A stretch of DNA of 64,000 nt, taken from the NCBI RefSeq assembly GCF_009914755.1, contig NC_060947.1, one strand, 5' to 3'. The notes below the pieces were generated by a model that made no database searches, was not told where the DNA came from, and was given only the letters and a program-made list of their open reading frames with translations. The stretch is from the human T2T-CHM13v2.0 reference genome, Homo sapiens. The position numbers and the translations under genes are program-made. Position 1 is the stretch's first letter; each line of letters starts with the position of its first letter. Positions 29,490-32,202 of the stretch are shown in pieces.

Positions 29490-30460
29490 TACTAAGCACT
29501 CTGTAAGTGCTGTGTCATTTAATCTTCATAATTGCCTTTTTGAACTTTGTGTACCACTCAATTCATCTTGGTGACTGACTACCACTTGCCTGAGTGAAAC
29601 TCTGGAAAGCACAAACAAACAAGCAAACAAAAAAACAGCCTCTTTTGAAATGATACAGAGTTGAGCTTTAATACTAGTATCTACAATCTACCACTATCCA
29701 ACCTTATAAAATATAAAAATCTTCACTACTCTTCATTGCATGGATGAAATAAACATATAAAGCAACAAGCACAGTGCCTAACAAAAAGCAAACACTCAAA
29801 AATACCAGTTATTATTATTGGCATTATTGTTCAATAGATGTACATAACATTAATGTTCTTAGATTTGAGCGTTAGACAACATTTCCCACATATTTTCTTG
29901 ATGTTTGAATACGTATTTTCCTGGAAATAAGTCTTAGTCTCAAAAATGTTAAGTGGCTCAATTTCTTACGGCTTCTACATTCTAATTTCCCACTTCAATC
30001 CCCAGCCTATATCCCATTCGGCCACCAGCCAGTTTCCCTGACTGAACAAGCTCTCTCACACCTCTGTATCCATTCTCTCCTTCATACACACACATGCTAG
30101 AGAAGTCTCTGGTTGTTAATAAAGCTTTACATTCTTCACCATCTTACGTTTTCTGTGTTCTTTTATTTTCTGTTGCTATACACTAGAATAAAATATTGAT
30201 GAGAGTAAGCTATCTGTCTGTTGTGCTCCCTGCTATATTCCCAGAGGCTGAAATTGATCAATAAATATTTGTTGAATTAATTACCTGACCTTTGTACTAG
30301 TCTTGGATACACAGTTGGATGCATATGGGGCTTCCACTTAAACTCTTGGAAACATGGAAATTGGACAAGTTAATCTTTTGGGGAAGGCCCATCATCCAGA
30401 GAGAAGAGTACAACCAACACTTCAGGCCAGGATGGAATTCTACCTCTCTTTCTCTCTACT
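29490..30460 (+). repeat. Ancient duplicated segment, copy 1 (paralog of 55840-56818)
   Basis: Collinear similarity over ~950 bp, including an identical 30-mer at 30348-30377. Confidence 0.92.
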
Positions 30461-32202
30461 TTTTTTTATTTTTTTGATTTTTTAAATTTTATTATTATTA
30501 TTATATTTTAAGTTTTAGGGTACATGTGCACAATGTGAAGGTTAGTTACATATGTATACATGTCCATGCTTATGGGTAGGAAGAATCAATATCGTGAAAA
30601 TGGCCATACTGCCCAAGGTAGTTTATAGATTCAATGCCATCCCCATCAAGCTACCAATGACTTTCTTCACAGAATTGGAAAAAACTACTTTAAAGTTCAT
30701 ATGGAACCAAAAAAGAGCCCGCATAGCCAAGTCAATCCTAAGCCAAAAGAACAAAGCTGGAGGCATCATGCTACCTGACTTCAAACTATACTACAAGGCT
30801 ACAGTAACCAAAACAGCATGGTACTGGTACCTAAACAGAGATATAGATCAATGGAAGAGAACAGAGCCCTCAGAAATAACGCCGCATATCTACAACTATC
30901 TGATCTTTGACAAACCTGAGAAAAACAAGCAATGGGGAAAGGATTCCCTATTTAATAAATGGTGCTGGAAAAACTGGCTAGCCATATGTAGAAAGCTGAA
31001 ACTGGATCCCTTCCTTACACCTTATACAAAAATCAATTCAAGATGGATTAAAGACTTAAACGTTAGACCTAAAACCATAAAAACCCTAGAAGAAAACCTA
31101 GGCATTACCATTCAGGACATAGGCACGGGCAAGGACTTCATGTCTAAAACACTAAAAGCAATGGCAACAAAAGCCAACATTGACAAATGGGATCTAATTC
31201 AACTAAAGAGCTTCTGCACAGCAAAAGAAACTACCATCAGAGTGAATAGGCAACCTACAAAATGGGAGAAAATTTTTGCAACCTACTCATCTGACAAAGG
31301 GCTAATATCCAGAATCTACAATGAACTCAAACAAATTTACAAGAAAAAAACAAACAACCCCATCAAAAAGTGGGTGAAGGACATGAACAGACACTTCTCA
31401 AAAGAAGACATTTATGCAGCCAAAAAACACATGAAAAAATGCTCACCATCACTGACCATCAGAGAAATGCAAATCAAAACCACAATGAGATACCATCTCA
31501 CACCAGTTAGAATGGCAATCATTAAAAAGTCAGGAAACAACAGGTGCTGGAGAGGATGTGGAGAAATAGGAACACTTTTACACTGTTTGTGGGACTCTAA
31601 ACTAGTTCAACCCTTGTGGAAGTCAGTGTGGTGATTCCTCAGGGATCTAGAACTTGAAATACCATTTGACCCAGCCATCCCATTACTGGGTATATACCCA
31701 AAGGATTATAAATCATGCTGCTATAAAGACACATGCACACGTATGTTTACTGCGGCACTATTCACAATAGCAAAGACCTGGAACCAACCCAAATGTCCAA
31801 CAGTGATAGACTGGATTAAGAAAATGTGGCACATATACACCATGGAATACTATGCAGCCATAAACAAGGAGGAGTTCATGTCCTTTGCAGGGACATGGAT
31901 GAAGCTGGAAACCATCATTCTCAGCAAACTAACACAAGAACAGAAAACCAAACACCGCTTGTTCTCACTCATAAGTGGGAGTTGAACAATGAGAACACAT
32001 GGACACAGGGAGGAGAACATCACACAACGGGGCCTGTCAGGGGGTGGGGGACTAGGGGAGGGATAGCATTAGGAGAAATACCTAATGTAGATGACAGGTT
32101 GATGGGTGCAGCAAACTACCATGGCACATGTATACCTATATAACAAACCTCCACATTGTGTACATGTACCCCAGAATTTAAAGTATAATAATAAAAAAGA
32201 AA
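30460..32202. mobile_element. Inverted/chimeric L1: minus-strand young 3' end, plus-strand young ORF2, then an older L1PA6/7-like 3' end
   Basis: Poly-T and reverse-complement 3'UTR (30460-30563) joined at CCATGCT to sense ORF2. Diagnostic bases switch from young to old between 31821 and 31865. Confidence 0.93.

What the first reader, a model, noticed from the sequence alone, without database searches (positions are those of the whole stretch)
30460..32202. Two-tailed chimeric L1: twin priming apparently completed on a resident older L1, with probable genomic deletion
Seen: a young L1 3' end on the minus strand (poly-T, GGTTAGTTAC type) joins young sense ORF2 at ACATGT|CCATGCT, where both parents share CCATGCT. 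The sense part has young markers up to GGATTAAG (~31820). From ~31865 it carries older L1PA6/7-type markers (TTTGCAGGG, CTAACACAAG, ATAAGTGGGAGTTG, GTAGATGAC, GTTGATGG) and a second A-tail. There is no TSD, and homology to the paralogous segment (55840-56818) ends exactly at the poly-T. Inference: a minus-strand insertion was twin-primed, the second primer being a DNA end inside a pre-existing opposite-orientation L1. This fused the two elements and deleted the DNA between them.
Basis: partly seen in the sequence, partly recalled or inferred. Interest (0 to 1): 0.75.

Follow-up and report, generated by a model that had tools for sequence, protein, structure and literature searches.

The report
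Fused young-old L1 marking a deletion
On the human X chromosome a young L1 jumping-gene copy, partly back to front, is fused to the tail of an older L1 copy, and the DNA that likely lay between them is missing, most likely through recombination after insertion, which is a known kind of rearrangement.

Summary
Window 30460-32197 is a minus-strand young L1 3' end (poly-T, about 60 nt of body), then a plus-strand young ORF2 arm that switches cleanly to an older L1 3' end between 31818 and 31867 (51 of 53 markers young before, 32 of 34 old after; 0 of 20000 shuffles as good). Two nearby paralogous copies act as outgroups: left-flank homology stops at the poly-T, right-flank homology starts at the second tail at an empty site, and the sequence just upstream of that site exists in two copies only. 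So DNA was likely lost; its size is not fixed (8.5 kb in the nearest paralog is a guide only). An ordinary 5'-inverted insertion followed by L1-L1 recombination gives the same sequence and fits better (about 0.5 against 0.27). New here: the young arm shares very rare alleles with neighbouring L1 copies 21-30 kb away (only it and one neighbour carry both, among about 14,000 copies), pointing to local gene conversion. Known kind of event; modest interest. Ape genomes would decide.

The parts
29320..30459 (+). Left flank S1, old paralog (22-24% diverged) of S2 (55836-56817) and S3 (C23:50797575-50796426); homology stops at the poly-T
30460..30503 (-). Poly(A)-type tail of the young L1, read as poly-T; the paralogs read T then an A-rich run here, a loose endonuclease-like site
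30504..30563 (-). Young L1 3' end (non-inverted arm); 30494-30563 has 1-2 mismatches in 69 to the closest young copies, 10 in 70 to the element's own old 3' end
30558..30570 (.). Inversion junction: shared T at 30563 within an imperfect 12-of-14 homology that includes CCATGCT
30563..31817 (+). Young ORF2 arm (inverted arm), 2.1% from the young majority; dead fragment with a stop at 31632; rare alleles at 31126, 31597, 31655 shared with copy C, 31597, 31613, 31750, 31778 with copy D
31818..31867 (+). Switch interval, 50 nt without diagnostic markers; the old-type majority has a T|AAAA site at 31861, the element itself reads TAAAC
31868..32197 (+). 3' end and tail of the older resident L1, 3.8% from the old majority
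32198..37710 (+). Right flank R1, 8-9% diverged from R2 (C23:50595309 on) and R3 (C23:50779211 down); both paralogs are empty at this site (TT|AGAAA); homology resumes at 39012-39443 and 46308-46474
3395..9460 (+). Copy C, near full-length young L1 with an intact 18-bp TSD; likely conversion partner of the young arm
570..2692 (-). Copy D, truncated young L1; second likely conversion partner
56818..64000 (+). Segment X of the nearest paralog (continues to window-equivalent 65308, 8491 bp): lies between S and R there and has no counterpart at the finding

Best explanation
A young L1 likely inserted on the minus strand at 30460 as an ordinary twin-primed, 5'-inverted copy, and its inverted arm then likely recombined at 31818-31867 with an older same-strand L1 further right, which would have removed the right TSD, the DNA between them and the front of the old L1. 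Shown: three L1 pieces, the junction homology, the clean young-to-old switch, flank homologies ending exactly at both tails, the empty site in both paralogs. Inferred: the order (right-flank duplication, old L1, young L1, recombination), an RNA-templated origin of the inverted arm, annealing-type recombination, and later patchy gene conversion of the young arm with neighbours C and D.
For: In-register switch inside 50 marker-free nt between same-strand L1s whose majorities differ at 62 of 1248 ORF2 columns; published homologous LINE-1 rearrangements have median similarity 93.5%, and LINE-1 events median microhomology 34 bp and length 4.5 kb (PMC9675761 passages). 5'-inverted copies are about 30% of recent L1 insertions and 17 of 17 in a cell assay kept a TSD (PMC2912911 passages), so a TSD-bearing intermediate is the usual start. 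This model needs no odd 250-300 nt gap. A crossover in the last 302 nt of the arm has probability 0.34 under uniform placement over 29 old copies. Loss, not inversion: 881 bp upstream of R found in 2 copies while R has 3. Divergences fit the order: R copies 8-9% apart, old part 3.8%, young part 2.1% from their majorities.
Against: No intermediate was seen; no ape genome could be searched. The final sequence is the same under one-step capture. The non-inverted arm (about 100 nt with tail) is far shorter than the inverted arm, the reverse of the tumour average (1.51 against 0.54 kb), which one-step capture would explain. The switch interval holds a T|AAAA site in the old majority, as only 14% of 51-nt windows do. 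Allele sharing with copy C leaves a DNA-level origin of the arm open.
Confidence: 0.5

Rival explanations
1. One-step capture: during insertion a break in the old L1, perhaps an endonuclease nick at 31861, gave a minus-strand 3' end that would anneal to the L1 RNA by homology and prime the second cDNA; the two cDNAs joined at 30563 and the DNA between the breaks was lost.
For: Strand geometry works. T|AAAA in the old majority lies in the switch interval, 14% by chance, 26% with T|AAAG allowed. Very short first arm and switch near the 3' end. L1 intermediates recombine with distal breaks and homology promotes it (10.1101/2025.09.17.676864 abstract and passages); twin-primed cDNAs engage distant breaks in tumours (10.1101/2024.08.27.596794 passages).
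Against: Needs a 250-300 nt gap against 10-12 nt in 3 of 3 controls and a median of 14.5 bp. The element itself reads TAAAC at the site, so the nick site is inferred. Needs a second break in a nearby opposite-strand L1 at the moment of insertion. Only about 2% of human-specific L1 insertions delete target DNA (PMC1920257 passage).
Confidence: 0.27
2. The sense arm is not cDNA: it was a resident L1, or DNA copied from neighbour C (long conversion of the old L1, or template switching), and a short minus-strand insertion was joined to it by microhomology with loss of the DNA between; no twin priming.
For: 31597C is in 73 copies against 13,806 with the common base, 3 of them in this window; 31655T in 38; only this arm and C carry both. 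The arm differs from C at 30 of 1243, a tie with the best genome-wide hit, 30 of 1248. 31597C turns the last cysteine of the CX3CX7HX4C motif into serine, a motif reported essential for retrotransposition (PMC3091869 passage), so it is unlikely to be a source-element allele.
Against: A tree of 22 copies does not resolve an arm-plus-C clade. Shared rare alleles come as arm+C, arm+D and C+D, not nested, and two copies in the third paralog region share 3 as well: patchy later conversion explains them. Needs more events.
Confidence: 0.18
3. Two simultaneous insertions at two sites, joined head to head (dual or synchronous priming), the plus-strand one from a source that was already chimeric.
For: Bridges with two tails and no TSD are described in tumours; dual priming was proposed in PMC2837659 (passages).
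Against: The 3' end is 3.8% and the rest 2.1% from their majorities; no second copy of the chimera among 40 scored of 9144 candidates.
Confidence: 0.03

Closest known systems
L1 recombination-associated deletion / homologous transposable element-mediated rearrangement (PMC9675761 passages; Han et al. 2008 recalled, not held)
   Same: One chimeric L1 in register, switch in tens of identical bases, same-strand parents, flanking DNA lost, no matching TSD pair.
   Different: The left parent is the inverted arm of an opposite-strand insertion, so two tails remain; pre-event state seen only through paralogs.
Twin-primed 5'-inverted L1 (PMC2912911 and 10.1101/2024.08.27.596794 passages; Ostertag and Kazazian 2001 recalled, not held)
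   Same: Tail, short forward arm, inversion junction with microhomology, inverted arm of the same young type.
   Different: No TSD, far end runs into an older L1, forward arm much shorter than the inverted arm.
L1 intermediates captured at distal breaks or on endogenous L1s (10.1101/2025.09.17.676864; 10.1101/2024.12.14.628481 passages; Gilbert et al. 2002, 2005 recalled, not held)
   Same: Insertion hallmarks at one end, homology junction at a distant site, deletion between.
   Different: Those are somatic or reporter events; as recalled, the cell-culture chimeras use same-orientation L1s. Here the resident copy faces the other way.
Gene conversion among neighbouring repeats (Alu: PMC8230782 passages; L1 locus NCLI34 in PMC1920257, inverted insertion later converted)
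   Same: Rare alleles shared by nearby copies in non-nested patterns.
   Different: L1 copies 7-30 kb apart here, beyond the roughly 10 kb range quoted for Alu.

Membership tests
Twin-primed 5'-inverted L1 | Tail and forward arm joined to an inverted arm of the same element type | tested here: met
   both arms young type; the same RNA molecule cannot be shown, the arms do not overlap
Twin-primed 5'-inverted L1 | Microhomology at the inversion junction | tested here: met
   shared T inside 12-of-14 imperfect homology
Twin-primed 5'-inverted L1 | Target site duplication | tested here: not met
   so not an intact member today
Twin-primed 5'-inverted L1 | Internal priming site close to the end of the forward arm | tested here: inconclusive
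   250-300 nt off if the switch is the priming site; unobservable if removed later
Twin-primed 5'-inverted L1 | Endonuclease-type site at the tail | tested here: inconclusive
   paralogs loosely fit but are 22-24% diverged
L1-L1 recombination deletion | In-register chimera of two same-strand L1s with homology at the switch | tested here: met
L1-L1 recombination deletion | Loss of the DNA between the parents | tested here: met
   through paralogs only; size not fixed
L1-L1 recombination deletion | Both parents seen separately in an outgroup or other haplotype | not testable with these tools
   no primate relatives held
Synchronous double insertion | Both tails from elements of the same age | tested here: not met
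L1PA3-type and L1PA7-type subfamilies | Match to library consensus | not testable with these tools
   no repeat library; names recalled

The most novel reading that the evidence does not exclude
Homology-guided twin priming in the germ line: the L1 endonuclease nicked a resident older L1 at the A-run at 31861, its 3' end paired with about 300 nt of the incoming RNA, primed the second cDNA and cut the first one short, fusing the elements and deleting the DNA between in one step.
Probability: 0.22. Interest if true: 0.6.

Novelty: new member of a known kind. Interest (0 to 1): 0.33.

Why it matters
As read here it is one more L1-mediated deletion, in an intron of a predicted lncRNA, with no known function lost. 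It shows that inverted arms of twin-primed copies can serve as recombination partners for opposite-strand neighbours. If the one-step reading held, it would be a fixed germ-line case of an insertion finished on a resident L1 and a handle on the twin-priming model, which a 2023 review says still needs experimental validation. The side result may matter more: rare L1 alleles cluster along chromosomes, which would bias dating and source tracing of L1 copies.

Tried and rejected
One subfamily for the whole sense arm: rejected. Inversion or relocation of the missing DNA: no third copy found (one search agrees but scored only 40 of 21525 candidates and was crowded by repeats). Copy B (54151-55835) as donor or reciprocal product, because it starts about 21 nt from the same L1 position: 49 of 1246 and 43 of 318 mismatches, rejected. 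L051, 360 kb away, as source: 39 of 1200 mismatches. The right flank as a by-product of the event: 8-9% from both paralogs, too old. C as RNA source of the arm: no supported clade, shared cysteine loss, non-nested alleles; not favoured. TSD control was crude and 5 of 58 loci were entered in the wrong orientation and gave no result. The minus-arm comparison was off by one base and was redone. My CpG classifier was unreliable and is not used. Literature: nine searches found no description of this locus (0 papers) nor of twin priming completed on a resident L1; five key papers were not held (Gilbert 2005, Beck 2011, Han 2005, Han 2008, Ostertag 2001), and no supplements were read, so locus lists there could include it.

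Full report
Observation. The window shows a poly-T from 30460, a minus-strand L1 3' end to 30563, a plus-strand ORF2 arm from 30563 and a second tail at 32185-32197. I drew 29 old-type copies with the 3' end as query and 29 young-type copies with the minus arm as query, so neither set was chosen by the ORF2 arm. Old copies are 87.7-91.0% identical to 30563-31830 and 92.1-94.6% to 31870-32185; young copies 94.1-97.4% and 83.2-87.5%. With four local copies added to the young set there are 87 diagnostic columns: 51 young and 2 old up to 31817, then 32 old, 1 young and 1 neither from 31868; 0 of 20000 shuffles do as well, and 13 control copies show no block switch. The switch lies in 31818-31867. 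The best of 40 scored candidates across the switch is 93%, against 97-98% for the ORF2 arm alone. The minus arm is young: 1-2 mismatches in 69 to the closest young copies, 10 in 70 to the element's own old end. At the inversion both parents carry CCATGCT, but the product lacks the minus parent's preceding G; the join is a shared T at 30563 in a 12-of-14 imperfect homology. The ORF2 piece is dead (stop at 31632). Subfamily names, about L1PA3 and L1PA7, are recalled.

Deletion. No primate relatives were available, but the genome holds two paralogs. The left flank S has copies at window 55836-56817 and C23:50.797 Mb; the right flank R at C23:50595309 and 50779211. In both, S and R are separated by a segment X of 8491 and 17212 bp. 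At the finding, S homology ends at the poly-T and R homology starts at the second tail; both paralogs are empty there and read TT|AGAAA, an endonuclease-like site whose right half would be the old L1's surviving TSD copy. The 881 bp upstream of R occur in two copies only. So sequence was lost rather than inverted. A limit: S1 is 22-24% from its paralogs and R1 8-9%, so the ancestral layout was not simply S-X-R and the size is open. Absence of a TSD is weak evidence alone, because the same kind of test found 9 nt or more in only 7 of 17 young controls, though copy C shows a clear 18-bp TSD.

Mechanism. Divergences give the order: R duplication (8-9% pairwise), old L1 (3.8% from its majority), young L1 (2.1%). 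Two routes give the same final sequence. Two-step: a normal 5'-inverted insertion with TSD, then recombination of its inverted arm, now on the same strand as the old L1, in a 50-nt marker-free stretch. 5'-inverted copies are about 30% of recent L1s and all 17 in a cell assay had TSDs (PMC2912911, passages); LINE-1 rearrangements have median microhomology 34 bp and size 4.5 kb, and homologous ones median similarity 93.5% (PMC9675761, passages); the switch position is unremarkable, 0.34 under uniform placement. One-step: a break in the old L1 primes the second cDNA. This needs a 250-300 nt gap, against 10-12 nt in 3 of 3 complete control inversions among 58 loci and a median of 14.5 bp in tumours (10.1101/2024.08.27.596794, passages). 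In its favour: the first arm is unusually short, the old majority has T|AAAA at 31861, as 14% of windows do, though the element reads TAAAC, and homology-promoted capture of L1 intermediates at distal breaks is shown in reporters (10.1101/2025.09.17.676864, abstract and passages). I give 0.5 and 0.27.

Unexpected result. The young arm shares rare alleles with neighbours C (3395-9460) and D (570-2692). The base at 31597 occurs in 73 copies genome-wide against 13,806 with the common base; three are the arm, C and D. The base at 31655 occurs in 38; only the arm and C carry both. The arm differs from C at 30 of 1243, tying the best genome-wide hit. Against descent of the whole arm from C: a 22-copy tree leaves the fork open, shared alleles are non-nested (arm+C, arm+D, C+D), and 31597C removes the last cysteine of the CX3CX7HX4C motif, reported essential (PMC3091869, passage). 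Patchy later gene conversion is the cautious reading; a DNA-level origin of the arm keeps 0.18. Elsewhere the same alleles cluster too: 17 pairs within 500 kb outside this region for 31597C against a null mean of 1.2-3.6, 4 against 0.4-1.1 for 31655T. I did not mask segmental duplications, the null is crude and only two sites were tested.

Comparison and novelty. Each ingredient is known: twin priming, L1-L1 recombination deletions, two-tailed bridges, an inverted L1 later converted (PMC1920257, passage), conversion among neighbouring Alus (PMC8230782, passages). PMC11702581, PMC3024322, PMC2837659, PMC10760644, PMC4859970 and PMC10887698 were seen as passages only. Nine searches found no account of this locus or of twin priming finished on a resident L1, but five key papers were not held and are recalled only, and no supplements were read. 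Verdict: a real fusion marking a likely deletion, a new member of a known kind; interest 0.33; the one-step reading (0.22) would deserve 0.6.

Noticed in passing
window 570-2692, 3395-9460, 30563-31817; genome-wide lists: Rare L1 ORF2 alleles are shared among neighbouring copies and cluster along chromosomes (17 pairs within 500 kb outside this region against 1.2-3.6 expected), suggesting distance-dependent L1-L1 gene conversion; segmental duplications not excluded.
   Followed up: partly
window 54151-55835: L1 copy B also lacks a TSD and sits at a homology boundary: its paralog match starts at its tail and the DNA before it does not match the third paralog, so likely another L1-linked deletion. 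It has a split tail and starts about 21 nt from the L1 position where the finding's arm starts.
   Followed up: partly
window 29320-46474, 55836-64000 and on; C23:50767001-50801000: Three-copy paralogy: a tandem pair and an inverted copy about 200 kb away, 8-9% apart in R, with an older 22-24% layer in S; further weak paralogy of 13146-16050 and 18806-19156 to window-equivalent 81852-84000.
   Followed up: partly
L006 and L005 (C23:50802854-50807000 and 50783599-50789555): Two L1 copies 19 kb apart share 3 alleles absent from all distant copies examined.
   Followed up: no
L004, C23:50796401-50796100: An Alu inserted in the third paralog within about 25 bp of the site matching the young L1's insertion point, suggesting a reused endonuclease-prone spot.
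   Followed up: no
window 32152-32163: A 12-nt patch in the old 3' end matches copy D and carries one young-type base; possibly a tiny conversion tract.
   Followed up: no
window 57990-58570: A 570-bp interspersed repeat with many 85-88% genome matches, likely a solo LTR (family not tested).
   Followed up: no
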